Assembly (NCBI GenBank): GCA_018240985.1
Contig: JAFEER010000049.1
Location: 4,440-68,439, forward strand
Reading direction: 5' to 3'
Source: Pseudomonadota bacterium
Lineage (GTDB): Bacteria > Pseudomonadota > Gammaproteobacteria > Burkholderiales > Burkholderiaceae_C
DNA: 64,000 nucleotides
Part shown: positions 3,488-22,593 of the stretch, piece after piece
Layout of the letters: the number at the start of each line of letters is the position of its first letter
Numbering within the stretch: position 1 is the first letter of the stretch
The notes under the pieces: model-generated
The model's database searches: none
What the model saw: only the letters and a program-made list of their open reading frames with translations
What the model was told of the DNA's origin: nothing
Program-made: the position numbers and the translations under genes

Positions 3488-4007
3488 AACTACTTTTGCC
3501 TGACGTTTCTGAATTTGAAATCCGCCGAGACGGGGCGAAGTCGGGAGGTACCAAACGCAACCACTTGCTCGCAGAGTCGCAGTTAGCCCAGGAAGCACCG
3601 ACGCGCTGACCTTCAGGGAATTGAGATATCCCACATCCAGAGTCAGAGTAGTACCGCGTCGAACGCCTTAACGCACTCACCCGCCAACCACTTGAAATGA
3701 GCGCGCAGCATCCCGTGGGTGGTTCGTGCCAGACCTTGTGCCTTTCACCGCCTCCGTAGCTCTTCTGGATTGCCCAACTCTCGTGAGTCTGGACGAAGCC
3801 GCGCATCAGGTATTCATAGTCCGCAAGCGTCACCTGCTGAGCGGGCGCGAGCACGCCGTGTATAAGGACGCCTTGGCCACTCACGTAGATGACGATTTCT
3901 TCGCGCTTCGCATTCGCCTTGAGGAACGTTACCGAATCTTCCGCGCCGACGAGCCAATTCGCGGCTTCGTCAACTGGAGCTTGTGCCAGAGCCTTTGGAG
4001 TTGCCAT
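3477..4007 (-). pseudogene. Probably truncated middle gene of the nuclease/SEC-C operon
   Basis: Protein-like for ~95 aa (MATPKAL...REEIVIYVSG...WAIQKSYGGGERHKVWHEPP), then the composition looks non-coding. Sits between two co-oriented large genes. Confidence 0.45.
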
Positions 4008-7000: not shown

Positions 7001-7874
7001 TGACCGTCCCTGGAGCGCTTCGTACCGCCATCGGATACCAGGCCCCAGCGACGGTGACGCCCAAGAAGGGAAGGGCATCGCCAGTGAATGCTGCATTGCC
7101 AAACGAATCCCACGTCAGTGGCGCCTTGTAGCCACCGACTTCCGCATTGAGAGAAGTTCCCGTGCGCTGGCGCCAGTCGGCGCTCAGTTGACCGATGTTC
7201 TGCAGCATGTCCCTGTACGAGAGCCAGAAATCTTCCGGAGGGAGCTCTACGTGGCCACGTTCCGCATCGACAACAGGGGGCTGTATGAGGTGTGGAATGG
7301 CTTCAATGATCAGTGCCTGCATCGCGACGACCAAGTCCATCTGGGCCAGTGCGGCGGGCACATCGGCGTAGGTGATTCGAAAGGCTTCTATGAAGTCCGG
7401 CACTCGCTCGATGCTGCTGCCGTAGAAGACCGGAACGAACCGGCCGCCGAGACTCACCTTGGTCTGCCCCCAGTCCGCCTCAGGGGAGAAGTCTTCGAGG
7501 GTAGGAAAGTCGGGCCAAGCTGCATGAAGTGTTTCGGCGAACTTTTGGAAGTCGGTATATCTCTCGATTCTTTTACCGCCACGTCCTTCGAGCGGGATGT
7601 CCAGGAATACGCACCATGCAAACGCATGTTTGACGTGGCTGCCAGCATTCGCCGGCCAGAGCTCGGACGCACCGATTGCTCGCGCTACGTCTGCTGCGTC
7701 ATACTGGCACAGGAGGGCGCGGGTCTCCCTTACTTGAGCGAGGAATGTGTCCTTCACCTGTATGCGTTCGCCAAAAAGAGCGTGCAAACTGCTCATCTGG
7801 CGAGCTAGGAAATCAGGAGCCGCTGCGGTCTTAGCAAGTCGACGCTCGCGTTTCTCTCTGGACTTTCTACCCAT
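4080..7874 (-). CDS. 1264-aa protein with a C-terminal PD-(D/E)xK (NERD-like) nuclease domain
   Basis: Long uninterrupted ORF; C-terminal EDVGDFDVLAYWPDHNLLAAVECKY motif; basic N-terminus MGRKSREKRERR. Confidence 0.85.
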   Translation of the reverse strand: MGRKSREKRERRLAKTAAAPDFLARQMSSLHALFGERIQVKDTFLAQVRETRALLCQYDAADVARAIGASELWPANAGSHVKHAFAWCVFLDIPLEGRGGKRIERYTDFQKFAETLHAAWPDFPTLEDFSPEADWGQTKVSLGGRFVPVFYGSSIERVPDFIEAFRITYADVPAALAQMDLVVAMQALIIEAIPHLIQPPVVDAERGHVELPPEDFWLSYRDMLQNIGQLSADWRQRTGTSLNAEVGGYKAPLTWDSFGNAAFTGDALPFLGVTVAGAWYPMAVRSAPGTVIDHWAKKKAPSVSPQVHSRLSQFVFERYDGTLPGPVVLVLGGEICRELPISSVTSAPTGVYLICICDHETVDKQAAVAAAVLAKARQEKNIRCKLIGGPEVLLSSDGVNGPSADELHIILVPALATTSVGLLNLPDKPVRLLPLADLITIFDSLKNLEDLERYWAFCDGQRAALSPFSRGPADLFASFMDTDGVLVDGAVEPTMISLDPSWGTSWRFKALAEFWSRAPRVFPDRTSGWRLSEGTEGVIEMSSRGRKVICYSTLVGDCTVQALLDIKGDLEDARMVNLFIQILADSSFRCRRQLAAAPLFQSEHVLFVCKRSVSSTIVGNDEMDSAADKNAGPVVTAAEGTFSRAAVIHLEIDVRSVLTGLTDAHDGHFEVRCLAETIRKSHDALGMALPEGLEETILSMSGGLARYTLRVTARRVDVPEHPPVVIPRMSDYKLARKQLAEVIRDLGLAPGRYALSEAKEKIDLASAKFRLRIDGRLAQLDRLQLIRACIEQHDALLATERERIQRARQSLSHEVNYDRIEAVEEAREKYGTVARHYRYLLEKAVSSQASGPGEVTLDVLRELVGKVDWLMSLANASDILHNGVDVAGVTIDDSFIPEVFYSDGSNDRDVRFAREYAKTRLGLGENRKDAVEGESEALLESADFNNAFETDLGFNLSDLFTSLSVLAQAQHRGFSKELSLSYGAKPKELAEKLVSEIKDLGQEKAERIVAFLTLSETGLLRLAGRDVQEEEVPYWEHSKRVYRYAIRPLVPVGDELRWGAEAASRCMFNWMSSVRDGYLPADFGWPNIEPAVRQVKASIERRLEFRSEEIFRRHTPFVARGIDFNRKHRAEGFEDVGDFDVLAYWPDHNLLAAVECKYNQPFYTMKDGRRIRDKIFGRKEGDKGQIGKMLRRGAFLEQHRTRMLELLGWPKPAKVPERYAELYVSRDIYYWMVHPPYLVPTHFVRVSTLDSWLKTELFTVAGLP

Positions 7875-7974
7875 GAAACCCCTTTGATGTTCTTAAAAGT
7901 TCGCTTGCTGGCGAGTTCTGGCTACGACGGCGTGGCGGAAACAATGTTAGCAACGCAGCGCTTATTCGCTGGAG

Positions 7975-8213
7975 TGAATCACCCCGGCTTTCAAGGAGGC
8001 CGGTTGATTTAAGTCAGGTCGCCACAGCAGTGGCCTGACTGACGAGTTGCCGGTAGTAGTTTGCCTCAGCTTCTGCTGGTGGGATATACCCGGTGGGTTC
8101 GAGCAGGCGATGGTGGTTAAACCATGACACCCATTCGAGCGTGGCGAACTCCACGGCTTCCTTTGTTTTCCATGACGCACGACGATGGATTAACTCGGCT
8201 TTGTAGAGACCGT
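7975..8213 (-). mobile_element. IS3-family (IS51/IS401-like) right-end remnant
   Basis: The minus frame reads NGLYKAELIHRRASWKTKEAVEFATLEWVSWFNHHRLLEPTGYIPPAEAE (IS3 OrfB C-terminus), followed by the terminal IR TGAATCACCCCGGCTTTCAAGGAGGC at 7975. Confidence 0.8.
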
Positions 8214-8332: not shown

Positions 8333-9310
8333 TCAGCGCCCAGGTCGTCTTCGCATGTTTCGCAGGCCTTGGCTGATGGTCTTCACAGCAGCCGCATGAT
8401 TTGAAGTGCTGCGATTCGCATCCTCCGCGGTAAGGTCAAGCTGCGCAGCCTTGCGTCGTCGCCATGGCACCAAATCGAGTGCACCGTCTTCGGCGGCCGG
8501 CGACGCGCGTTTCGACTTTTGCGTTGGCTCCATCCGCGCGGCCAGTCGGGCTTTTATGCGCATCAGCTTATGCATTCGATCTTCAAGAGTCAGGGCTTTA
8601 GCGTTCTGCGTTCGAAGTGTGGCGTTAAGACCAACTCGTCTGCGGGCTATTGCCCCTTGCTTGCCAACATGCACTGTTGGCAGCCGCTCAATGCCCCTCG
8701 CTTTGAAACTGCGGTGGTCAACCCGTTCAGCAGATCCCGTTCGGGCAAGTGCAGCATTCACCAAGTCCTGCCAACGTGGTCGCAACCAGGACACAGAATC
8801 TGTGGCACCACTGCGTCGGCATGCGATGGGATCAAGCCTTTCTGTTTTCTTGCCGAGCACGCCATCGGCATCGACGGTACATGCGGTAAGAAGCAGGTGC
8901 GCATGGAAATTTCGATCGTCGCCATCACGTGACGGAGCGTGCAGTGCGCAATCCACGCCAACGCCAAACTCGTCGGCAATTTCACGTGCAAAGCCAAACG
9001 CCAACTCGGCGCGTTCGTCGGCGCCAAGTTCTGTGGGAAGAGCCAGCACAATTTCGCGCGCCAAAACGGCATCACGCCGGCGGTGATGCATCTCGACGCC
9101 ATTCCAGAAGTGCTCTCTATCGCGCACAACGCGGCCGCCTGGCAGATGAATGCGCGCATCGAGCACGCCGTGCCGGCGACGGTAGTCGAAGACCTGCCCG
9201 GTGCGCTGATCACTGATCAGCGCACCGGCACGGTAGGCGGCAGCGGCAGTCGCAGAGCGTCCGGTGGCACGCGTGATGGGCGCGCGTGCGCTCAAGTGAA
9301 AAATAGCCAT
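8333..9310 (-). CDS. mobA: MobA/MobL (MOBQ) relaxase, without a fused primase
   Basis: MAIFHLS...GRSATAAAAYRAG (catalytic Tyr), REIVLALPTEL and the HAPS...NFHAHLLL 3H motif; ATG at 9310. Confidence 0.93.
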   Translation of the reverse strand: MAIFHLSARAPITRATGRSATAAAAYRAGALISDQRTGQVFDYRRRHGVLDARIHLPGGRVVRDREHFWNGVEMHHRRRDAVLAREIVLALPTELGADERAELAFGFAREIADEFGVGVDCALHAPSRDGDDRNFHAHLLLTACTVDADGVLGKKTERLDPIACRRSGATDSVSWLRPRWQDLVNAALARTGSAERVDHRSFKARGIERLPTVHVGKQGAIARRRVGLNATLRTQNAKALTLEDRMHKLMRIKARLAARMEPTQKSKRASPAAEDGALDLVPWRRRKAAQLDLTAEDANRSTSNHAAAVKTISQGLRNMRRRPGR

Positions 9311-9352
9311 TCGCAGTTCCTCAGGGGTGTCGGGGCGCAGCCCTGACCGCAC

Positions 9353-11603: not shown

Positions 11604-11858
11604 TCACAGATCGTCTGGATCTTTGAACTGTTCAGGATCGACCAGGTCCTTGAGCGGCACACCGACCGCGTCGGCGAGCAAGCCCATGTTGTCGATGCTG
11701 ATGTTCCGTGCGCCGCGCTCGACGCTGCTCACGTAAGCACGGGTCAGGCCTGAATCGAAGGCGATGACCTCTTGAGTGATTTCTCTGTTGCGCCTCGCTC
11801 GGCGCAGATTTCGAGCAAATACGGCTCGCGCAGTCAATGTTTTTGCAGTCTTCTTCAT
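11604..11858 (-). CDS. XRE-family HTH transcriptional regulator
   Basis: NLRRARRNREITQEVIAFDSGLTRAYVSSVERGARNISIDN; ATG at 11858. Confidence 0.9.
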   Translation of the reverse strand: MKKTAKTLTARAVFARNLRRARRNREITQEVIAFDSGLTRAYVSSVERGARNISIDNMGLLADAVGVPLKDLVDPEQFKDPDDL

Positions 11859-11913
11859 ACAGAAGAAGCGTGTGTTGCAGGCGCGCAAACCTCCACTCAC
11901 TTTGCTGTACATA

Positions 11914-11990
11914 ATGACAACTTTAGGATTCAATAAGTTTTCCAATAGATTCAAAAAACAAACTCCTGTTGTCTTCATGACGACTTTGGG
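11914..11990. promoter_or_regulatory. Paired candidate operator boxes in the divergent XRE promoter
   Basis: ATGACAACTTTAGG (11914) and ATGACGACTTTGGG (11977): 12/14 identical, 63 bp apart, in an AT-rich spacer. Confidence 0.55.
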
Positions 11991-12004
11991 GATCAACACA
12001 CCGC

Positions 12005-13151: not shown

Positions 13152-14264
13152 ATGATCGAATCGTTTCTTCTCGTCATCTACGCCGCTGCGTCCGTCGCTC
13201 TTGCGGTGTGGGCCCGCCGCAGGTTCAGGCTGCGGCTGGACTGGGCACATCCCCGCATGCGAAGGCCCATCTTCGATGGGCAAGTGCGCAGCGCCGGTAG
13301 CGCAGGAGCCCTGGGCGCAGCTGACGCGGTAAGCACAGCGGCTTTGACCAGCGCGTCGCCGAACGCAGTCATGGTGTTCGTGATCATCGTGGCCGGCCTG
13401 ATCGGCGCCGTCATCGGCGCAGGCGTGCTGCCAGCTCTCGTCGGAGGCATCGGGCAGCCCGGGTGGCTCGGAATGATGGCTCTGGTGGTGGCTACTCTGG
13501 CCTGGGTCTGGATCGGAGGATCCCTCGCGCTGCCCATTCTGGCCCTGGCCCTCAGCCTAGCGCCGATCCTGGCCGGCCTGGCCGTGATCGGGTTCATCGG
13601 CATGATGCTCGGGCAGACTTTTGGCTCGGGGCATCCCGGCCTGTTTTCGTCGACAGGAACGTGGCAAGCGGGCTTCGGCGCCCGGATGGACTACAACCTC
13701 TGCGCTGCGGGAACGGCAATGATCACGCTGGGGAGCCCACAGGAGATCGCGCGGAAATGCAAACAGAAAGTCGTCGGAGCGCACCCGGTAGAGGGGCGAT
13801 TCGCCGGCATCTACAGCTGCCAGCCAGGGCAGCGCGTGGCTGCGATCGTGGATGTTCGCCCCTTCGGCCCTTTCAAAGACGGGCTGAAGAGTGCCGAGTT
13901 CACGTTCGGCGATAAGCCCGAGGCGGTGTTTCCGAACGGCTCGTTCGCGGGCTTCTTCCGCCCCAGCGGTGCCGCGGGCGAATCCCGATCCGACGAGCTC
14001 AAGTGGACGCAGAAGCCCTCGGCCGGCTGGGGCATGCCAAATCAACTGTCGATCACCGCACAGCCGGATGGCGGCCTCAGTGTGAAGCTTATTAACACTC
14101 CCTGCACGACGCTGCAGGCCAAACGCTGCGAAGCCGCCGAAGCAGGCCGCATCCCCACCTGCGAACGAGAGTTCGCTGAGCTGGGCGTCAAACTCCATAA
14201 GCCCAAGACGCTGAATGAGCTTGCAAAAATCATGACGGATCAAGAGGCTCGAAATAAACGCTGA
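13152..14264 (+). CDS. Multi-pass membrane protein with a Cys-containing soluble C-terminal domain
   Basis: About 4-5 hydrophobic segments; co-oriented 43 bp after the ankyrin gene. Confidence 0.7.
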   Translation: MIESFLLVIYAAASVALAVWARRRFRLRLDWAHPRMRRPIFDGQVRSAGSAGALGAADAVSTAALTSASPNAVMVFVIIVAGLIGAVIGAGVLPALVGGIGQPGWLGMMALVVATLAWVWIGGSLALPILALALSLAPILAGLAVIGFIGMMLGQTFGSGHPGLFSSTGTWQAGFGARMDYNLCAAGTAMITLGSPQEIARKCKQKVVGAHPVEGRFAGIYSCQPGQRVAAIVDVRPFGPFKDGLKSAEFTFGDKPEAVFPNGSFAGFFRPSGAAGESRSDELKWTQKPSAGWGMPNQLSITAQPDGGLSVKLINTPCTTLQAKRCEAAEAGRIPTCEREFAELGVKLHKPKTLNELAKIMTDQEARNKR

Positions 14265-14585
14265 CGGGAACAAGTAAGGCGCCGCACCTATGACGCGACG
14301 TTGCGGATACGCAACAGCCCTACATTCATTGGGTTCGCGCATAGTCTCCAAACTTTGACACTCGCGTTATCGACCCTTTAGCATTCGATCCATTGCTGCA
14401 ACTACACATATTCGCCCCCAGGATTGACTGGGATCGGAGGTCAGGGTCGAGGGGCACCTGAATAGCGCTACGGCAGTGATACCCACGGAAACAGGCCGCC
14501 GTGAACCAAGCACGAATTCCATTGGAATTCAAGATGAGCAAACCTCATCCTGAGCTGGTTCACAGAATATCCGTGAACCAGCCCG

Positions 14586-15014
14586 GTGATGAAAACCACC
14601 AAGGTTCACGTGAAAACTCTTCCAGCCCTGTCCAACAACCACACCCCTATCAACACCGACGAGTCTCGCTCCGTCCGTCAGTGCATTGACACTGCGAAAC
14701 GTGCCCGAGAAGTCATGCTCCAGGCCTGCGCCGGTGAGCTGCGACATGTAGCCCCAGCTTGCGCCAAGAAATTTCTGGACGCGTCGGCCGATATTTACGA
14801 CCTTCTCGACCAAGTCGACCAGCGGGTCAAGTTAGGAAATCGCGCTGGTCAACTCGACCACATTTTCGTGCTTCGGTTGAATGCCGAACTCGACAAGCTT
14901 GCCGACGAACTGTTTGTCCGAGCGCATTTGGCGATGGGGTCTCCGGCAATGGCCTGGATGCCCGGCTTCGTGGCGGGCTGTCACAACCTGCTAGCAGGAG
15001 GCGCCAATGACTGA
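14586..15014 (+). CDS. Hypothetical protein
   Basis: 142-aa ORF with helical composition; no recognisable motif. Confidence 0.4.
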   Translation: MMKTTKVHVKTLPALSNNHTPINTDESRSVRQCIDTAKRAREVMLQACAGELRHVAPACAKKFLDASADIYDLLDQVDQRVKLGNRAGQLDHIFVLRLNAELDKLADELFVRAHLAMGSPAMAWMPGFVAGCHNLLAGGAND

Positions 15015-15208
15015 TGCGCCAATCGCTCACACTGACTTCGGGCCGCCAACCGGTTTTAAGATGCCTCCTTGACAAAGAGGGCCACGATAACAAACGAGGC
15101 CCGCAACTGGTGACGAGGAATCAGGCCGCGGCAACAGTCTGGACATGTGCAGCGGCGACATGCCGCTGCACCAGGACTCCTGAGAGTCCTGATAGTCCTG
15201 AATACGGC

Positions 15209-15286
15209 GGGCGTTTGCTACAGCGACCGGGCGTTTGGTACACGGGAACGGGCGGATGCTGCATCACTCCAGGCGTTTGCTACAGC
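15209..15286. repeat. Iteron-like array (putative oriV) at the 3' end of the repC-like gene
   Basis: GCGTTTGCTACAGC at 15211 and 15273, GCGTTTGGTACACG at 15231, degenerate GCGGATGCTGCATC at 15252; period 20-21 bp. Confidence 0.6.
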
Positions 15287-16113
15287 TCGCTCACGGCCGG
15301 CTGTGCAGCTTTATGAATTTGAGTTGGGATTTTGCTCACGAACACTCGCCCTGACTGGATATCGATACCCAGGGCTTTTAGCCCTTCCGCGTCTTTTCGA
15401 ATTTCCCGCCGACGGTTGCTCATCTTCTCGGGATCTCCTGCACCGACAGCCTCAAGAAGACGGTCCAAGTGATATCCACCTCGCGGCGCTGATCGATGAC
15501 TCAGGACATGACGCGCCAGTGCTTGAGCAACACCAAACTGCAGCTGTGCCAGCGGCAAAGGGTCGTAGCGTAAATGCAAGTCAGCGCCGATCAGGACAAG
15601 AAAAACCGGGCCGAGCGTGACTTTCATATAGTGCCGGGGGGTATCGCAGAAACGCCCATTGAGGCTGCCACGCCGATCAATCTCTATCTTCGATCTCACG
15701 ATCTGGTCTATCACGTGGCCGCAGGCAGTGACACCCCTCGCCGGTATGTCTACATCCACCAAGACCCCCATCAAATCCTCGAGAACAGTTTGAAGCTGCT
15801 CGAAGCTGCCCTGCTTGCCACCATTGGCGATTTTTCGCAACTGGTACGTATCGACCAATAGTTCAATGCGGCCTTCTAGATCATTGCGCCAATCAGCACA
15901 ACTCCAGAACATGGCCTCCAAAACATCTGCATGGCCTTGCCCTATTTTCCCTTTGATCTTAGCTTTCCCCCATGAGGTGCGCATCTCGCGGACTTGGTAT
16001 GTGGGTCGCCGAGTTGGCTCGAACAGGCATAGCCGCGCTTGATGCACAGTGCTGGTCGGAAGGTTGGCAAAGCCGAATTCGCTCACGTTTTGCTCAGCGC
16101 AGGACATCACCAT
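15280..16113 (-). CDS. Plasmid-type replication initiator in the RepC position
   Basis: Start overlaps the repA stop; LPTSTVHQARLCLFEPTRRP...WGKAKIKGKIGQGHADVLEA; iterons directly downstream. Confidence 0.65.
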   Translation of the reverse strand: MVMSCAEQNVSEFGFANLPTSTVHQARLCLFEPTRRPTYQVREMRTSWGKAKIKGKIGQGHADVLEAMFWSCADWRNDLEGRIELLVDTYQLRKIANGGKQGSFEQLQTVLEDLMGVLVDVDIPARGVTACGHVIDQIVRSKIEIDRRGSLNGRFCDTPRHYMKVTLGPVFLVLIGADLHLRYDPLPLAQLQFGVAQALARHVLSHRSAPRGGYHLDRLLEAVGAGDPEKMSNRRREIRKDAEGLKALGIDIQSGRVFVSKIPTQIHKAAQPAVSEL

Positions 16114-17024
16114 TCCTGCCTTTCCGCTACCGGTTTAACTCGAACCGGAAGCTTGTTCTTGATGTGCTTGCGGTCGATCAAGTCCGCCGTCACCAAAACA
16201 CCACCATCGCCGCGCCGCAGCCACACGTCCGGCACGGGTGCTCCATAGTTGCGCTTCGGGATGCCGAACCTGACGAACTGGCCCCGGTCCTGCTCGGGAA
16301 TTCCATGCTCTTTCGCTTCTTCCTTTGTCATGCCCCCCAGAAATGCCTGCCACCGAATGTTGTCGGTGAGCACGGAGCTGCCACGACTTGATTGCTGCAT
16401 ATCAGCTTGCCCATTCAGGGCTGCAGCTTTCGTCGTGTGATGCAGGAAAAGGATGCTGCAGCCGGTCAGATTGGCAATCCGCTCCATTTGGCCGAGTAGC
16501 ATCGCCATCTCCCCACCGTCGTTCTCATCCGCCACATGGATTCGGCGTAGGGTATCGATAAGCATCAGACGCCTCCCCTTTGCGCACTCCAGCGCCCAGT
16601 CGAAGCAGGGCTTCTTCATCAGGTCAAAGGGGTGGCCGACAAGTGGAAAAATGTCGACGCCAGCGTCCATCTGTAGCCGCGCGTCGAGATCAAGGTGCCT
16701 ACCGAGTGCGTGCAGTCGATGTTGCAAGGCGTCGGCGGGGTCTTCGGCGCAAAGCATCACAACGCGACCTTGCTTCGCTTCGAACTCAAGCCCCATCAGA
16801 TTGATGCCGGTTGCTACGAGAACAGCCCATTCCAGTGCAACGTAGCTTTTGCCAACACCACCGGGTGAGACCAGAGAACCAACTGTTCCAGCCAACATGC
16901 CGGGAAGGACAAAGTCCAATGGAGGCGGAGGCTTGCTAAAGGCGTCCACCAAATTCAGGCGAGATGGGAAGTTTGTTTTTTGGGACGTAGCGGAACGTGG
17001 ACTCGATTGATCGTCGGACGGCAT
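16107..17024 (-). CDS. repA: RSF1010-type replicative helicase RepA (AAA_25)
   Basis: PPPPLDFVLPGMLAGTVGSLVSPGGVGKS, LIDTLRRIHVADEN, LHHTTK, SRGSSVLTDNIRW. Confidence 0.92.
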   Translation of the reverse strand: MPSDDQSSPRSATSQKTNFPSRLNLVDAFSKPPPPLDFVLPGMLAGTVGSLVSPGGVGKSYVALEWAVLVATGINLMGLEFEAKQGRVVMLCAEDPADALQHRLHALGRHLDLDARLQMDAGVDIFPLVGHPFDLMKKPCFDWALECAKGRRLMLIDTLRRIHVADENDGGEMAMLLGQMERIANLTGCSILFLHHTTKAAALNGQADMQQSSRGSSVLTDNIRWQAFLGGMTKEEAKEHGIPEQDRGQFVRFGIPKRNYGAPVPDVWLRRGDGGVLVTADLIDRKHIKNKLPVRVKPVAERQEW

Positions 17025-17056
17025 GGCGGCAGTTGGTTAGCATCCTAAAAGGACGG

Positions 17057-18028
17057 AGAACCGGGTCACCATTCGTTGACGATGCATCGCTCAATGCACC
17101 CAAACCCTTCTACCCGCGTAAAAGGTCCGAATCGTTTCTGCCTTAATCTGGCTGCCAACCTCACTGCCATCTCGTGGTGGCAGCTGAAATTGGAGCGGGG
17201 GGCTACCCCCGTGCCTTCAGCACACTAGCAACTGCCATAGGTATCGGTGACAGGTGGTCACGAGGACCGTGTGCATGCGTCTGCCAACGATGTCGATCGA
17301 TTACCCATGGACATTCAGGCTTGTAGCCTCAGGAACTTTGCACTCGATTGACCCACACATTATTGGCGCTCTGGACGCAGGAGGCCAACAAGCGATAGCT
17401 TTAAAGCTCTTTGAATTCGATGGTCAGCGAGGCGTAAATCACGCCACCTTCACCGGCCTAAAACGGAAAAGTCTGCTCTGGGCCACGATCTTTTTCGGTC
17501 TGCCTGTATTCGTGGGGTAGGCAAGAACGCACTTGATACTGTCGCAACAGCACAACACCTGCCCTCTCCCTCATGCGCCGCGTCTCGGTTAAGCCGTCAG
17601 AACCGGAAGAGACTCGCGTCGAAATAGCTTTATGGGCTACTTGCAGTGCAACACCCACAAACTATGGGCTGTTGAGGCAAATGCACCGGCTGGGGCGTAG
17701 GCTCATTGTTGCCAAAATACGTCACACTCATTTGTTGCCACCCTCGAGTTTCTTGACGCGCAGCCCCTTGTATCCAGATACTGACAACGTCCTTGAGCGA
17801 CAAAGAACCTGCGGCGGCAATGTGTGTGCACGGATCGCGACAGGTAGCGACTGGACTGACTAGTGCACTGACGACATCAGGGGTAGCCCCCTGATCCATG
17901 ACGGAGCCCGGCGAACAAGATCTCCCGGGGCAGTGGACGGTCGGAAAGTGATAGATCCGGTTCGTATCCCCCAATTCTGGGTAAGGGGATCAGGAGCGCA
18001 AAGTTGCGACGAACGGTGACCCGGTTCT
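17057..18028. repeat. Two oppositely oriented copies of a ~150-nt leader element
   Basis: 20-bp box with 19/20 identity (17057-17076 vs 18009-18028) plus TAGC-loop hairpins at 17196-17211 and 17876-17895. Confidence 0.75.
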
Positions 18029-18052
18029 TTTCCCCTTTGGGGAACTCGAACC

Positions 18053-18550
18053 TTGGATCACCATGAAGAAACACCGCCCCCCGTCGGTCGCCTTAGCCGC
18101 CCCCTCACACTCGGCGCTCTCCCAGTAGTCGTTGATCACGTGGAGTCTCTGTGTGCTCAACACTTCGATTTCGCTCAAATGCAGTCAGCGCCAGGATGGC
18201 GGAAGCATGTAGATGCGCTGCTGAGCGAGATGTATCGCCGTACCGACTGGACGCTGCATCAACTGGGACCTCGAATCCGTGGAGAGCATGACCTTGATCA
18301 GCGATCAGTCGAACTGCTCTTGCAGATCTACGCTCAATTCGCTCACCTTCAAGATGGATTGGGCGATGTGGTCACCCTAGACGATCGAAAGAGGTTTTTC
18401 ATCAGTGCCCACGCCGCCTTCGTGCTGATGGACGAATTCTTTCCACAATGCGTTGAAGGCCTCAAATCCATCAAAGCCCAATCCCCTGCGGAGGCAGCAG
18501 ACACACAGCTGGAATTTCTGCTCGCCCTGGCGGAGGGACGCCTCGTATGA
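18053..18550 (+). CDS. Hypothetical protein, first gene of the xis-int operon
   Basis: 165-aa ORF whose stop overlaps the xis start (ATGA). Confidence 0.6.
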   Translation: MDHHEETPPPVGRLSRPLTLGALPVVVDHVESLCAQHFDFAQMQSAPGWRKHVDALLSEMYRRTDWTLHQLGPRIRGEHDLDQRSVELLLQIYAQFAHLQDGLGDVVTLDDRKRFFISAHAAFVLMDEFFPQCVEGLKSIKAQSPAEAADTQLEFLLALAEGRLV

Positions 18551-18759
18551 GCTCAATGCAAACAGCGGTATCCAGCGAAAGCACTGGACTCGTAACCGTA
18601 AGAAAAGCAGCCGAGCTCACCGGGCTATCAGAAAAGGCCATTCGCCGAAAACGCGAAGAAGGAATCTGGCTTGAAGGACGCGAAATCGTCGTCGGACCGG
18701 ACAAGCGGATCTACGTGGACATTGCAGCCTTCCAGAAGTGGGTACGGGGGCTGCAATGA
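18547..18759 (+). CDS. xis: Excisionase (winged-helix)
   Basis: VTVRKAAELTGLSEKAIRRKREEGIWLEGRE...RIYVDIAAFQKWV; ATGA-coupled to the integrase. Confidence 0.85.
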   Translation: MSSMQTAVSSESTGLVTVRKAAELTGLSEKAIRRKREEGIWLEGREIVVGPDKRIYVDIAAFQKWVRGLQ

Positions 18760-20012
18760 CAAAAGGGTCCTCCCTCAAAGGTCTTCCAGGTGTGGAAAAG
18801 CGCGGCAACTCGATCCGCTTGTCGTTCACGACGCGGGACGGAATTCGCCACAAGAAAACCTACAAGCTCGACGGCGTCGTATTGGCCCCGACAGGGCCGA
18901 ACATGAAGTCCGCGCTGACATTGGTCAGAGACATCAAAGCGGAGATCAAGCTCGGTGTCTTCGAGATGTCACGACACTTCCCCGACGATGTGGAAGTTCT
19001 CGCCGCCGCACAAGCTGAGCGAGCCAAGCGCCGCACAGTTGCACAGCAACTGGACATCTGGCGCTCATCGCTGATCGTCGCCCCCTCTACCGCGGAGGGC
19101 TACGACACTGCCGTGCGGTTCTGGAAGAAGGCGCCGGCTGCTGCGCCCCTGACGGGACAGACGTGGCAAGACATGCCACTGATCGGAGAGGTGCCTATCG
19201 ACTCCCTCGTTCTGTCGCAGATCAAGGCTGCTTTGGCCAGCAAGGCGCATCGCTCAGGCAAGACGACCAACAACTACATTAGTGTGCTGAAGCAGGCGCT
19301 GGACCTGGCGGTCGGTGATCGGCTCATTCCTGATCATCCGGCGGTCGGCAAACCAGTGAGGCGCAAGTGGCAGAAAGGCACACCTGACCCGTTCTCCAAG
19401 ACAGAGGTCGGCCTGATCGTAGCGGACATGTGGTCACACTACCCGCCGCAGGTCGCTGCCATGTGTGAGTTCTGGTTCCTCACCGGCCTGCGGACGTCCG
19501 AACTGCATGGCCTGCGGTGGGGCTCGGTCGATCTGCGCCAGGGGACGATTCACATCCACGAAGTCATGGTGCGCGGCAAGTCCAAGGCAACGACCAAGAC
19601 GAACGAGGATAGACAGATCAAGCTGCCCCAACGGGCGCTGGAACTCCTCAAAGCGCAGAAGGCCTGCACCTACCTGCGTGGAGAACACGTTTGGGATGAC
19701 CCGCGTAACGATGGCGGCCCCTGGATGGACGAGCGGCCTTTCCGACGCTCGTACTGGACACCCACGATCAAGCGCCTGGGCATCCGCTACCGCAAACCCT
19801 ATCAGTGCCGCCACACAAACGCCACGATGCGCCTGATGGCAGGCCAGCGCCTGGGCTACGCGGCGCAGCAGATGGGCCACACCGTGGACATGTTCGTCCT
19901 TACCTACACACGCTGGATCAACGACGGGCACAGCGCGCTGGAAGACCAGAAGCTTGAAGAATTTCTGGCACTGGAAACGCCTGCCAAGACAACCCTCGTG
20001 GACGCAAATTGA
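18756..20012 (+). CDS. int: Tyrosine integrase with an N-terminal arm-binding domain (lambda-like)
   Basis: LTGLRTSEL, KTNEDR, YQCRHT, MGHT, TYTRW catalytic set; ATG at 18756. Confidence 0.95.
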   Translation: MTKGSSLKGLPGVEKRGNSIRLSFTTRDGIRHKKTYKLDGVVLAPTGPNMKSALTLVRDIKAEIKLGVFEMSRHFPDDVEVLAAAQAERAKRRTVAQQLDIWRSSLIVAPSTAEGYDTAVRFWKKAPAAAPLTGQTWQDMPLIGEVPIDSLVLSQIKAALASKAHRSGKTTNNYISVLKQALDLAVGDRLIPDHPAVGKPVRRKWQKGTPDPFSKTEVGLIVADMWSHYPPQVAAMCEFWFLTGLRTSELHGLRWGSVDLRQGTIHIHEVMVRGKSKATTKTNEDRQIKLPQRALELLKAQKACTYLRGEHVWDDPRNDGGPWMDERPFRRSYWTPTIKRLGIRYRKPYQCRHTNATMRLMAGQRLGYAAQQMGHTVDMFVLTYTRWINDGHSALEDQKLEEFLALETPAKTTLVDAN

Positions 20013-20169
20013 CGTCGTGAAGGCGCCACCACCAGCAAGCACCGCTACCCAACCACGTGTGACCGCGACTTGTTCGCAGTGACGGCGACGATTTGACGCT
20101 TGGTCACACGTTCAACAGAAACCACGCTCGCACCTTGCGCCTGCTGCTATGCATTAAGGAAATTTCCAG

Positions 20170-20973
20170 ATGAAATTCAATCCATTCGAAGAGATCACCA
20201 AGCCATGGTCACAAGTGACCTTGCACAACGTTCATCTGCTCGCAGTGTGCCCCACTGAGGATTTGCGCACAATGATTACGGTCGAATATCAAGGAGCGAA
20301 GTGCGATCTGATCTCTGCCGGCCACTGGGATGCTCAATGGAGCCCTCGCGATGTCGGCCGTTTCGGCTATCTCGTTCCTGCAGATCCTATTGACTCGGTG
20401 TCTCAATGGGCATGTCGCTTCCGAACATACCTCGACCCGAGCCTGCGACGCCTGTTTGAACTTGATGCCAAAGATCAATGGGGGTGGCTTTGCGACGATC
20501 GCCCGCAAGGCTTTCTCGCGCCAGCTGGTTTGCTCCCTGGCGTTAAGGGCAGGTACGTTGCAGACGAAACGATTCCACTCACCTTGCGCATTCCGCCTGA
20601 ATTTGTTCGGCTATGCAGGGGTGTAGATCGCACGCCTGCCGAAGTCCTGCGCGGTTTCGTAGCTGATGCAGGCAACATCAACAACTATTGCAATTGGCCT
20701 CGCGCTGATGGGTACGATAGCAATGGGAGCGACGAACGGTACATGGCCGAAGAGTGGCTGAAGCGCGCCTATGGAATAGATGCCGTAGATGTAGAGCAGT
20801 TGGAAATTGCCGAGGAGGCGCGTGCAGCTCGCGCTGACGCCCGGGATGAGTTCGGGGTGTTACTAGAAGAGTTTCTCGACTACAGTGGTTCGGTCCAAAA
20901 ACTGCATGATGCGGTGAATGCCCTCATTGAACAACAACGCCTCAAGCAAGAGGCCACCACCGGCGAGCAGTAA
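20170..20973 (+). CDS. Hypothetical mobile-element protein
   Basis: 267 aa; the C-terminal LRIPPEF...TPAEVLRGFVAD...GYDSNGSDER pattern resembles small proteins of ICE-like elements. Confidence 0.7.
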   Translation: MKFNPFEEITKPWSQVTLHNVHLLAVCPTEDLRTMITVEYQGAKCDLISAGHWDAQWSPRDVGRFGYLVPADPIDSVSQWACRFRTYLDPSLRRLFELDAKDQWGWLCDDRPQGFLAPAGLLPGVKGRYVADETIPLTLRIPPEFVRLCRGVDRTPAEVLRGFVADAGNINNYCNWPRADGYDSNGSDERYMAEEWLKRAYGIDAVDVEQLEIAEEARAARADARDEFGVLLEEFLDYSGSVQKLHDAVNALIEQQRLKQEATTGEQ

Positions 20974-21044
20974 CAACCACCCGTTGACACGCATCCGCGC
21001 TGCAACCGGCACGTTCGAGCCGACCTGGCCTTGCTTCCCTCAAG

Positions 21045-21989
21045 TCACATCACGTCGATGTGTTGGTGAATCCGCGCCAGCATTGCATCGAAATCCGGCT
21101 GCCCTTGGTAGTAAAGCGCTGCGGTCTTGCGGTACTCCTGAGCGAACCGCTGGCGCTGAGCGGGGTCCGCGAGGATAAACGCCTGGTTCTGTGCAATGAC
21201 TTGCTCATCTCCGGTGCGAAACCGCTGCGCTTTGCGCTCCTGGTAGGCGAGCTCGCACATGAAGTCCTGCACCTCTTGCAGCCCTAACAGGCAATACACG
21301 TCGTAGTAGTGGCGCAGGAAGTTGGCCGGGAAGGCCTGCGCCTCGCTCAGCCGGCGGTACTTGGTGGAGATGGTCTGGAGCTTTTCCACGAAGGTGTGCG
21401 TGGGGGCATAACAAGGCACTGCCGTTGCCCGGTTGTCGACCACCTTGATCCCACGGGCCATGGCCACATCCAGTGCCCAGGACGAGATCGTGACCGCACG
21501 ATTCGGCGCCGTGTCATCGAACCCCAGTTCCAGCAGGATCCCGTCCTTGACCCCGGCAAGCGCCGCGGTATGAGGCGTGTAGATCAGACGGATACCCGCA
21601 CTGCGCATCTTGTCGTCATCGAACTGCGCGTCACGCTCCACGCGGTCGACACCCGGAATGGAAATGCGCGCGGCCAGCTCGTCGTAGTACGCGCGCCGTG
21701 ACTCCACGTGCGCCGGCTTGTCCTGGTTGCGTCCGATCTTCACGTCCATGCCGTGAGGCGGTTCGATACGGATATCGATGTCTTCGGAAAAGCGATGGAT
21801 AACGCCGAACCCTTTCGACAGCGACGTGCCGCCCTTCAACTCGAACTGGAAGCCCTGGGCCTGCAAGCCCCAGAGGCAATGCATGATCCAGTAGTCCTTC
21901 TCGACCAGCATGGGATCAAGCCCTCGCTCATCCGCGACGACTGCGAGCAGTTGATCGAAGTCTCGCCGATCGTGCAAAAAATCAGCCAC
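21045..21989 (-). CDS. abiEii: AbiEii-family nucleotidyltransferase toxin (type IV TA)
   Basis: LVEKDYWIMH, LKGGTSLSKG, RFSEDID, TFVEKL, RHYYDV. Confidence 0.93.
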   Translation of the reverse strand: MADFLHDRRDFDQLLAVVADERGLDPMLVEKDYWIMHCLWGLQAQGFQFELKGGTSLSKGFGVIHRFSEDIDIRIEPPHGMDVKIGRNQDKPAHVESRRAYYDELAARISIPGVDRVERDAQFDDDKMRSAGIRLIYTPHTAALAGVKDGILLELGFDDTAPNRAVTISSWALDVAMARGIKVVDNRATAVPCYAPTHTFVEKLQTISTKYRRLSEAQAFPANFLRHYYDVYCLLGLQEVQDFMCELAYQERKAQRFRTGDEQVIAQNQAFILADPAQRQRFAQEYRKTAALYYQGQPDFDAMLARIHQHIDVM

Positions 21990-22593
21990 CCGACCACTCT
22001 CTTAGGCGCTTGCGAGTGGCCAGGTTGCCAAAACGGTCAGCGGCACGCTGCAATTGGGCTGGCTCGAACGAAGGCAGCTTGCTGCGCGCTTGGCGCAGTA
22101 CCGCATCACGGTCCTCTGCCAACTCATCCAGGTTGTTCAGCAGATCCACGTAGAGGAATTCGGGGGTCAGCTTCTTGGGGAAACGCGGCTTCATCCGGAA
22201 ATCGAACTGCCGGTTGCCCAGCTTGAAGATGCCATGGCGCTTGTGGTTGTAGACCACGGTACGGTTATAGAGCTGGGTCGTGCCCAGGCCCACGGCGTTG
22301 TAGGCCGAGGGAGAGAAGACCAGAAAGTCTTTGTCTCGCAGAAACCCGCCCACGACCTGCTCGTCGGCAGGCGGAAGCGGGCCAAAGCTGGACTGCTTGG
22401 GCGCGTAGTACAGGCCCTGAGCAAGCTTCTTGAGCTTTCCGGTGGCGACCAGTTCACGCAGATGCCGATCCACAGCTGTGGACAGACGTGCGAGATCTTC
22501 GCGCCGGTAGACGCGCCCGGCCTGCAACTCATCGGCGAGATGCGCGGCAGCGCCTCGCAACGAGGGGGCAGAAGGTAAGACCAATGCGGACAT
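21982..22593 (-). CDS. abiEi: AbiEi-type antitoxin / transcriptional regulator
   Basis: GRVYRREDL...LKKLAQGLYYAP...AYNAVGLGTTQ; overlaps abiEii by 8 bp. Confidence 0.85.
   Translation of the reverse strand: MSALVLPSAPSLRGAAAHLADELQAGRVYRREDLARLSTAVDRHLRELVATGKLKKLAQGLYYAPKQSSFGPLPPADEQVVGGFLRDKDFLVFSPSAYNAVGLGTTQLYNRTVVYNHKRHGIFKLGNRQFDFRMKPRFPKKLTPEFLYVDLLNNLDELAEDRDAVLRQARSKLPSFEPAQLQRAADRFGNLATRKRLREWSGG

What the first reader, a model, noticed from the sequence alone, without database searches (positions are those of the whole stretch)
17057..18028. Twin covarying leader elements in front of the divergent rep and xis-int operons
Seen: read in transcript direction, each operon is preceded by the same collinear blocks: a hairpin with a TAGC loop (CGGGGG/CCCCCG vs ATCAGGGG/CCCCTGAT, a compensatory change), GGCAGTG, GGGTA(GA)AGGG, and the 20-mer ACGAAYGGTGACCCGGTTCT ending 32 and 24 nt before the starts. 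Loop-to-box distances are 126 and 122 nt. Known: phage P4 CI and P1 c4 small RNAs control early operons by pairing with leader boxes. Inferred: one trans-acting RNA or protein co-regulates replication and excision; the central 17.25-17.85 kb may encode it (for example the GTGAC/GTCAC hairpin near 17247).
Basis: partly seen in the sequence, partly recalled or inferred. Interest (0 to 1): 0.68.

Follow-up and report, generated by a model that had tools for sequence, protein, structure and literature searches.

The report
Twin structured mRNA leaders, mobile element
Two diverged copies of one ~205-nt folded RNA leader, not in Rfam, sit directly before the start codons of the replication and the excision/integration operons of an Acidovorax-type mobilizable element, so both modules probably obey one post-transcriptional switch.

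Summary
Window 17022-17227 (-) and 17861-18065 (+) are diverged copies of one element, each ending at a start codon. A covariance model built only from right-type relatives finds every left-type copy end to end. On 15 distinct sequences, 92% of cells pair, against 33-53% when partners are slid. 24 pairs change on both sides, against 2-7 slid.

The "20-mer box" is a hub of three helices, not a free pairing box. ACGAAY pairs with RUUCG 44 nt upstream, and both variable box positions covary with it. GGUGACC pairs with GG(A)UCACC just before the AUG. GGUUC pairs with GAACC around a hairpin. Conserved sigma-70-like promoters lie 70-130 nt upstream. No Rfam family matches.

Best reading: a new cis-regulatory 5' leader RNA whose 3' stem covers the ribosome-binding region. 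The effector is unknown.

That region is replaced by a 3.6-kb insert in the closest relative, and right-type leaders occur alone in other elements.

The family is narrow, confined to Acidovorax-type mobile elements. This scan has notes on this window only.

The parts
17022..17227 (-). Left-type leader RNA element (full model match), ending with the repA start codon ATG at 17024-17022.
   Evidence: cmsearch with R1 (built from right-type sequences only) gives 32.4 bits, E 2e-8, model positions 1-203 of 203. R2 gives 125.7 bits.
17861..18065 (+). Right-type leader RNA element (full model match), ending with the conserved ATG at 18063-18065.
   Evidence: R1 gives 240.7 bits. It is 87-94% identical to leaders in Acidovorax sp. 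T1 plasmid p1-T1, genome G177 and about 15 metagenomic loci.
17359..17388 (-). Predicted sigma-70-type promoter of the left operon: TTGGCC, 18 nt, AATAAT.
   Evidence: Promoter scan. TTGGCT-N18-AATAAT is kept in L003 and L144. Homology with L003/L422 ends at 17392, just upstream of the -35.
17753..17782 (+). Predicted sigma-70-type promoter of the right operon: TTGACG, 18 nt, GATACT. The palindrome GTATC-CA-GATAC (17770-17781) overlaps the -10.
   Evidence: Promoter scan. TTGAC and TGTATCCAGATACTG are invariant while the spacer varies in L276, L277 and L422. Homology with relatives starts at 17707-17769.
17196..17211 (-). P1 hairpin of the left leader: CGGGGG UAGC CCCCCG.
   Evidence: Pair 21-30 is GC in 10 sequences, AU in 4 and GU in 1. 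Pair 19-32 is AU in 9 and GC in 6. Helix 100% paired.
17877..17894 (+). P1 hairpin of the right leader: UCAGGGG UAGC CCCCUGA.
17057..17076 (-). The 20-mer ACGAAUGGUGACCCGGUUCU of the left leader. It comprises the 3' strand of P3a (17075-17071), the 5' strand of P7 (17070-17064) and the 5' strand of P5 (17062-17058).
18009..18028 (+). The 20-mer ACGAACGGUGACCCGGUUCU of the right leader. It comprises the 3' strand of P3a (18009-18014), the 5' strand of P7 (18015-18021) and the 5' strand of P5 (18023-18027).
17960..17990 (+). Right leader: 5' strand of P3a (GUUCGU, 17960-17965) and hairpin P3 (17966-17971 with 17985-17990, conserved GGGUA in its loop).
   Evidence: Helices 6 and 7 are 98.8% paired, with 2 and 4 pairs changed on both sides.
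17103..17132 (-). Left leader: 5' strand of P3a (AUUCG, 17132-17128) and hairpin P3 (17127-17122 with 17108-17103).
18015..18062 (+). Right leader 3' stem: P7 (18015-18021 with 18055-18062), P5 (18023-18027 with 18048-18052) and P6 (18030-18035 with 18039-18044). It ends at the base before the AUG and contains the only SD-like purines (UGGA).
   Evidence: Predicted -24.4 kcal/mol. P5 and P6 covary. P7 is conserved but shows no change on both sides.
17025..17070 (-). Left leader 3' stem: a weak P7 (only GGUG/CGCC), P5 (GGUU/AACC) and P6 (CGUCCU/AGGAUG).
   Evidence: Predicted -13.0 kcal/mol..
17393..17706 (.). Central spacer between the two promoters. It is not conserved in any relative.
   Evidence: No BLAST match in any fetched locus. 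L422 has a 3.6-kb insert here carrying an F420-type oxidoreductase, an AraC regulator and an rve transposase.
16107..17024 (-). RepA-type helicase gene (305 aa).
   Evidence: Pfam AAA_25, 4.6e-34. PHROG primase/helicase families. Relatives are named 'helicase RepA family protein'.
15280..16113 (-). 277-aa gene overlapping the repA stop by 7 nt (possible initiator). Three 15-nt iteron-like repeats lie at 15208-15284.
   Evidence: ORF list. Repeat family D3, spacing 20 and 42 nt. No Pfam, PHROG or NCBIfam hit.
18063..18550 (+). First gene of the right operon, split in this assembly. The conserved ATG opens only 21 codons (to 18128). The rest (homologue of orf163/orf129) runs in the frame of 18053-18550 and is called from ATG 18179 (123 aa).
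   Evidence: Intact 163-aa versions start at the conserved ATG in L422 and L424.
18547..20012 (+). Excisionase-like gene (18547-18759) and tyrosine integrase gene (18738-20012).
   Evidence: PHROG excisionase families and Pfam HTH_17. Pfam Phage_integrase plus Arm-DNA-bind_2.

Best explanation
Shown: each copy is a ~205-nt structured nucleic-acid element that always ends at, or 1 nt before, a start codon. The two are diverged paralogues of one family. The shared architecture is as follows:
- a 5' domain with hairpin P1 (loop UAGC, or UGGC in one relative) and hairpin P2;
- a central domain closed by helix P3a, which holds hairpin P3 (conserved GGGUA in its loop) and, in the right type, P4;
- a 3' stem made of P7, P5 and P6.

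The conserved 20-mer is the junction strand. ACGAAY forms P3a with RUUCG upstream. GGUGACC forms P7 with GG(A)UCACC directly before the AUG. GGUUC forms P5 with GAACC.

Inferred:
- Both are 5' untranslated leaders of mRNAs that start at conserved sigma-70-like promoters 70-130 nt upstream of the element.
- The 3' stem (-22 to -32 kcal/mol in most members) holds the Shine-Dalgarno-like purines and abuts the AUG, so translation is off by default.
- An unknown effector acting on the conserved upstream domains opens it. The effector could be a protein, a small ligand, an RNA or RNase processing.
- Because both operons carry the same sensor, replication (repA and the 277-aa gene) and excision/integration (orf163-xis-int) of this MobQ/IncQ-like integrative mobilizable element would respond together.
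For: Homology and structure. Model R1, built only from 7 right-type sequences, finds all 5 left-type leaders over model positions 1-203 of 203 (30-45 bits, E 1e-7 to 1e-12). A sequence-only model from the same alignment gives 17-32 bits.

Covariation on 15 distinct sequences:
- 91.8% of cells paired, against 83% shuffled and 33-53% slid;
- 24 pairs changed on both sides, against 2-7 slid;
- covariation score 0.317, against 0.045-0.092 slid.
Helices P1, P2, P3a, P3, P5 and P6 each carry changes on both sides. L425 was not in the training set and fits at 67 bits.

Helix P3a. The reverse complement of box positions 2-6 occurs exactly once, 62-66 nt after P1, in 12 of 12 sequences, in three variants: ATTCG/CGAAT, GTTCG/CGAAC and GTCCG/CGGAC. 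L422 shows the wobble intermediate.

Strand. There are 40 G-U cells against 13 A-C cells. Consensus folding energy is -50.3 on the sense strand and -41.1 on the antisense strand.

Position. The 3' end is at the AUG in 15 of 15 leaders.

Transcription. Promoter-like sites exist only in the sense direction, with conserved hexamers and variable spacers. No intrinsic terminator is predicted in 16900-18200, which argues against transcription attenuation.

3' stem energies are.
Against:
- P7, the helix that would cover the ribosome-binding region, is conserved (87.5% paired) but has no pair changed on both sides. It is weak in the window's own left copy (4 pairs, -13 kcal/mol, no recognisable SD).
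- The alignments used for counting were fitted to the model's structure, which favours pairing.
- The 15 sequences fall into a few close clades, so the number of independent events is much smaller than the number of cells.
- Single-sequence energies do not separate sense from antisense.
- No effector is identified.
Confidence: 0.6

Rival explanations
1. The functional RNA is a RepX-like countertranscript made from the opposite strand across the ribosome-binding region. Alternatively, the leader is mainly the target of such an RNA. Because both leaders share the 20-mer, one countertranscript could act on both operons.
For: RSF1010/R1162 controls repA-repC through RepX. This 75-nt antisense RNA covers the RBS and start codon, and its mRNA target folds into two mirrored stem-loops (PMC8136791, read). 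The element here has an IncQ-like RepA helicase, iteron-like repeats and a MobQ relaxase. Single-sequence energies are similar on both strands.
Against: No promoter-like site on the antisense strand and no terminator-like site anywhere in 16900-18200. Right-type conservation stops at the ATG, so no conserved antisense promoter can lie in the coding region. G-U cells outnumber A-C cells 40 to 13, and consensus energy favours the sense strand.
Confidence: 0.15
2. The hairpins act in single-stranded DNA, for example as priming signals on opposite strands like ssiA and ssiB of IncQ oriV, in a replicon that seems to lack its own primase.
For: The two copies are inverted, one on each strand, next to an IncQ-type helicase gene. 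DNA hairpins would show the same compensatory changes.
Against: The iteron-like repeats lie at 15208-15284, 1.8 to 2.6 kb away. Right-type copies occur singly in elements without a RepA helicase, which carry KfrA/DUF6475 operons instead. The 3' end coincides with a start codon in 15 of 15 copies. Many pairs are G-U. The size of ~205 nt with about 10 helices far exceeds the roughly 40-nt ssi hairpins, a figure I recall rather than checked.
Confidence: 0.08
3. The 20-mer is a DNA operator for one element-encoded repressor, for example the XRE protein at 11604-11999, and the remaining likeness reflects a duplicated promoter region.
For: The core reads as an imperfect 17-bp palindrome, GAACnGnGnCnCnGTTC. 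GGTGACCCGG is invariant in 14 of 15 sequences.
Against: Its two variable positions covary with a strand 44-50 nt away, which a protein site would not require. It lies about 240-300 bp downstream of the predicted promoters, next to the start codon. Substitutions within it, C to U in L144 and the left type, keep G-U pairing but break the palindrome.
Confidence: 0.07
4. One reading: a trans-acting RNA or protein encoded in the central 17.25-17.85 kb pairs with the leader boxes, as P4 CI or P1 c4 do.
For: Twin leaders with a shared box would allow it. In P4 and P1 the regulatory RNA is cut out of the leader itself, so a leader-derived RNA is not excluded. That statement rests on my own knowledge and was not checked here.
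Against: Window 17393-17706 is not conserved and is replaced by a 3.6-kb insert in L422. Right-type leaders work alone in other elements. There is no C4 or other Rfam match at E up to 10. The GTGAC/GTCAC hairpin at 17247-17261 lies inside the left transcript, and in L144 one of its pairs is broken.
Confidence: 0.05

Closest known systems
RepX countertranscript and repA leader of IncQ plasmids RSF1010/R1162
   Same: Post-transcriptional control at the ribosome-binding region of a RepA-helicase operon, with a structured mRNA target of stem-loops around the start codon (PMC8136791).
   Different: No antisense promoter or terminator is predicted here. The element is ~205 nt with about 10 helices, not two stem-loops. 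A second copy controls xis-int. There is no sequence likeness, and RepX is not an Rfam hit here.
putL/putR of phage HK022 and nutL/nutR of lambda (from my own knowledge, not checked here)
   Same: Paired, diverged copies of one RNA element in the two divergent early operons of a mobile element, kept alike by structure.
   Different: Those act on RNA polymerase to read through terminators, and they lie near the promoters. These end at the start codons, and no terminators are predicted.
Leader structures that hide the RBS in plasmid replication control: IncI-alpha/IncB repZ structure III and R1 repA (from my own knowledge, not checked here)
   Same: A stem that covers the rep ribosome-binding site, together with upstream hairpins whose loops are conserved.
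   Different: No conserved leader peptide. No conserved loop-to-RBS pseudoknot partner was found. No antisense gene was found.
P4 CI RNA and P1/P7 c4 RNA (Rfam C4)
   Same: Mobile-element leaders with repeated short complementary boxes.
   Different: No Rfam match. Here the complementary boxes are accounted for as helices within the leader.
Riboswitch-type leaders
   Same: A conserved multi-helix domain with invariant loop and junction nucleotides (UAGC, GGGUA, CUGA-G-CA), followed by a stem at the RBS. In the right type the leader is far better conserved than the gene behind it: 87-94% DNA identity against about 25% protein identity.
   Different: No ligand is known. Distribution is very narrow, and the genes controlled are not metabolic.

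Membership tests
C4 antisense RNA family (P1 c4 / P4 CI-like; Rfam) | Match to the family covariance model. | tested here: not met
   cmscan of 14000-21000 at E<=1 gave 0 hits. cmscan of 16990-18100 at E<=10 gave only two chance-level hits, mir-378 and Acido-Lenti-1, both far below gathering score.
C4 antisense RNA family (P1 c4 / P4 CI-like) | A small RNA processed from the leader that pairs in trans with repeated target boxes. | not testable with these tools
   Needs RNA 5'/3' end mapping.
IncQ RepX-type countertranscript control | An antisense promoter and a short two-stem-loop RNA overlapping the RBS and start codon of repA. | tested here: inconclusive
   The consensus scan finds no antisense promoter-like or terminator-like site in 16900-18200. 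The scan is crude, and RepX itself lacks a U-tail (PMC8136791).
IncQ ssiA/ssiB single-strand initiation sites | Located within oriV next to the iterons, one on each strand. | tested here: not met
   One copy lies on each strand. However, the iteron-like repeats are at 15208-15284, and the elements are at 17022-17227 and 17861-18065. Right-type copies also occur singly elsewhere.
Cis-regulatory structured 5' leader (riboregulator) | A conserved secondary structure supported by compensatory changes. | tested here: met
   24 of 60 pairs change on both sides, against 2-7 in slid controls. 0 of 500 shuffles reach the observed covariation score.
Cis-regulatory structured 5' leader (riboregulator) | A fixed position upstream of, and on the same strand as, the regulated genes. 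| tested here: met
   15 of 15 distinct copies end at, or 1 nt before, the start codon of repA or of orf129/orf163.
Cis-regulatory structured 5' leader (riboregulator) | The element is transcribed as part of the mRNA. | not testable with these tools
   There is only a prediction: conserved sense-strand sigma-70-like promoters.
Cis-regulatory structured 5' leader (riboregulator) | An expression platform that occludes the RBS. | tested here: inconclusive
   P7 pairs GGUGACC with GG(A)UCACC before the AUG in 11 of 15 sequences (87.5% of cells). It shows no change on both sides and is weak in the window's left copy.

The most novel reading that the evidence does not exclude
The leader is a true sensor RNA, either a riboswitch-like aptamer or the binding site of a dedicated RNA-binding protein. 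It has been duplicated within one integrative mobilizable element so that one signal switches on replication and excision/integration together. It also moves as a self-contained regulatory cassette between otherwise unrelated gene modules of Acidovorax mobile elements.
Probability: 0.3. Interest if true: 0.7.

Novelty: new variant of a known kind. Interest (0 to 1): 0.52.

Why it matters
How integrative mobilizable elements coordinate leaving the chromosome with starting to replicate is mostly explained by DNA-binding repressors and excisionase regulators. A shared structured RNA in front of both modules would be a post-transcriptional route to that coordination.

It would also add a well-supported RNA family, with about 10 helices of which six covary, to the few known from betaproteobacterial mobile elements. 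The right-type copy sits on a sequenced plasmid of a named strain, Acidovorax sp. T1 p1-T1, so the idea can be tested at the bench. In relatives the leader-orf129-PrtN cassette lies next to changing defence-gene cargo, which makes its control relevant to how such cargo spreads.

Tried and rejected
- Pattern scans of public collections gave only chance matches in coding DNA. This covers AYGGTGACCCGGTTC in viral contigs, GGGGTAGCCC-gap-GACCCGGTT in metagenome and viral contigs and GGTAGCC-gap-GGTGACCCGG in viral contigs and 400 genomes of the order. All were checked by BLAST.
- More distant RepA relatives have no leader. This holds for 33-47% identity (14 genomes), 61% (L145-147) and 79% (L138-141, where PrtN and a KfrA-like gene precede repA), as shown.
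- The phage collection gave no match, and PLSDB gave one plasmid.
- Leader peptides: small ORFs exist in individual leaders, for example TTG at -59 ending in ATGA in the window's right copy. None is conserved.
- A pseudoknot between the P1 loop (UAGC) and GCUA is possible only in left-type sequences, so it was dropped.
- A hairpin within the box (GAACGG/CCGGUUC) is contradicted by L278.
- Helix P0 and the small helices P1b and P2c have poor support (76-88% paired, no or few compensatory changes).
- AlphaFold2 of orf163 gave an all-helical model at pLDDT 52, too poor for a fold search. That protein was left out.
- The look-up of sequencing runs and later genome search were closed. No read-level or RNA evidence was obtained, and no model-based search of more genomes was possible.

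Full report
**1. What is in the sequence**

- Left operon (minus strand): a 305-aa AAA_25 RepA-family helicase at 16107-17024 (Pfam 4.6e-34; PHROG primase/helicase families). A 277-aa gene follows and overlaps the repA stop. Three 15-nt iteron-like repeats lie at 15208-15284.
- Right operon (plus strand): a gene of unknown function, then an excisionase-like gene at 18547-18759, then a tyrosine integrase at 18738-20012.

The wider element also carries a MobQ relaxase at 8333-9352, an AAA ATPase and an XRE regulator.

The 20-mer occurs twice in the window, against 0.01 expected, and nowhere else in the 4.04-Mb genome.

**2. Relatives**

Left-type leaders lie before RepA genes of 67-97% identity:
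- L003/L422, an Acidovorax sp. MAG;
- L142, L143 and L144;
- L278;
- L425.

Right-type leaders were found at 87-94% DNA identity in:
- Acidovorax sp. T1 plasmid p1-T1;
- one of 400 sampled genomes of the family, G177;
- about 15 metagenomic loci reached through the 129-aa protein behind the leader.

In the right-type loci the leader precedes orf129 plus a PrtN-family (excisionase-like) gene. orf129 is only about 25% identical to the window's protein. DNA homology stops exactly at the ATG. The leader is therefore far better kept than the gene it precedes.

More distant RepA loci, the phage collection and all pattern scans gave nothing real.

L422 carries both leaders, like the window. Its left type is at 3649-3854 (-) and its right type at 7799-8003 (+). 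A 3.6-kb insert with an oxidoreductase, an AraC regulator and a transposase replaces window 17393-17706.

**3. Structure**

A covariance model built only from seven right-type sequences (R1) finds all five left-type leaders end to end at 30-45 bits. A sequence-only model from the same alignment gives 17-32 bits.

L425 was not used for any model. It matches the combined model R2 at 67 bits over the full length.

On 15 distinct sequences:

| Measure | Observed | Shuffled | Partners slid 1-3 columns |
|---|---|---|---|
| Cells forming a standard pair | 91.8% | 83.2% | 33-53% |
| Pairs changed on both sides | 24 of 60 | 15.1 | 2-7 |
| Covariation score | 0.317 | 0.161 | 0.045-0.092 |

No shuffle out of 500 reaches the observed score.

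Support by helix:
- Well supported: P1, P2, P3a, P3 and P6 (95-100% paired, 2-6 compensatory pairs each).
- Also supported: P5 (92% paired, 2 compensatory pairs).
- Poorly supported: P0, P1b and P2c.

Step-wise series are visible:
- P1 pair 21-30 is G-C, G-U (L003) or A-U (L276, L284, L278, L425).
- P3a pair 109-190 is U-A, U-G (L422, L425) or C-G (L278).
- P3 pair 113-154 is A-U, G-U or G-C.

Caveats: the alignment was fitted to the model, and the sequences form a few close clades.

**4. What the 20-mer is**

The reverse complement of box positions 2-6 occurs exactly once, 62-66 nt after P1, in every sequence, in three co-varying versions.

The next seven bases, GGUGACC, pair with GG(A)UCACC or GGUCACC directly before the AUG (P7). 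GGUUC pairs with GAACC, or GGCUC with GAGCC in L278 (P5), around hairpin P6.

The box is therefore a junction strand shared by three helices. That is a sufficient reason for its invariance.

**5. Strand and transcription**

- G-U cells outnumber A-C cells 40 to 13.
- Consensus folding energy is -50.3 on the sense strand and -41.1 on the antisense strand.
- Single-sequence energies do not discriminate between strands.
- The only promoter-like sites in 16900-18200 point into the leaders: 17388-17359 on the minus strand and 17753-17782 on the plus strand.
- Their hexamers are conserved in relatives while the spacers vary. Homology with relatives begins just upstream of each -35.
- No terminator-like site is predicted.

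**6. Mechanism**

Shown: a conserved folded element whose 3' end is locked to the start codon in 15 of 15 copies.

Inferred: it is an mRNA leader. Its 3' stem is predicted at -22 to -32 kcal/mol in most members but only -13 in the window's left copy. The stem holds the SD-like purines and blocks initiation until something acts on the conserved upstream domains (loops UAGC and GGGUA, junction CUGA-G-CA). P7 itself shows no compensatory change, so this step rests on conservation only.

No conserved leader peptide exists. The effector is unknown.

Because both operons carry the same element, they would respond together. The central-region regulator and the P4/P1 analogy do not.

**7. Comparison and novelty**

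No Rfam family matches.

The nearest functional precedent for the rep side is RepX of RSF1010, which acts at the repA ribosome-binding region (PMC8136791). No antisense gene is evident here.

Twin diverged RNA elements in divergent operons recall put and nut sites of lambdoid phages, but those act on transcription.

I class this as a new variant of a known kind: a previously undescribed structured leader family. It has a narrow distribution, confined to Acidovorax-type mobile elements. The family was found in 1 of 400 sampled genomes of the family besides the window's own, and no real match turned up among 400 sampled genomes of the order.

The genome search closed before the model could be run on more genomes.

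Noticed in passing
window 18063-18179: The first gene of the right operon is split in this assembly. The conserved ATG opens only 21 codons (MKKHRPPSVALAAPSHSALSQ*). The homologous reading frame continues shifted by one base after a run of C at about 18077-18083. Relatives L422 and L424 encode an intact 163-aa protein from the same ATG. This could be a real frameshift or a homopolymer error of the MAG.
   Followed up: partly
window 17770-17781: A perfect palindrome, GTATC-CA-GATAC, overlaps the predicted -10 of the right promoter. It is invariant in L276, L277 and L422 while the spacer upstream varies, so it looks like an operator for a DNA-binding repressor.
   Followed up: no
window 15208-15284: Three 15-nt repeats, CGGGCGTTTG(C/G)TACA, start 20 and 42 nt apart across the stop of the 277-aa gene. 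They are iteron-like and fit an IncQ-type origin. They lie 1.8 kb from the nearer leader.
   Followed up: no
L422 4016-7644 (Acidovorax sp. MAG JBKBXG010000010.1): A 3.6-kb insert sits between the two leaders of the sister element. It carries an F420-type oxidoreductase, an AraC-family regulator and an rve-family transposase. Five near-repeats of TGAATCGGAATNACTGGCC lie at its edge (L003 3250-3400).
   Followed up: no
L279-L292, L276, L277: Directly downstream of the leader-orf129-PrtN cassette the cargo changes from locus to locus. Examples are a 1015-aa reverse transcriptase with Fic, a DncV-like cyclase with E2/ThiF/JAB genes, AbiEi/AbiEii, a TacA-acetyltransferase pair, and SIR2 with an ATPase. 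It looks like a defence-gene hotspot.
   Followed up: no
L142 1-138: Foreign DNA ending in ...TCTAACTCAGGACA abuts the CTAG at the first base of the leader model and removes the promoter. It looks like an insertion-sequence end at a CTAG target.
   Followed up: no
window 21045-22593: An AbiEii nucleotidyltransferase toxin gene (314 aa) with an upstream DUF6088 partner (203 aa) lies on the minus strand just beyond the integrase. The pair is conserved in L422.
   Followed up: no
window 13152-14264: The 370-aa gene without family assignment is about 80% identical at the DNA level in plasmid p1-T1 (L276 1236-2286) and in G177 (L277 721-1792). There it also lies a few kb from a right-type leader, so it travels with these elements rather than being host DNA.
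   Followed up: no
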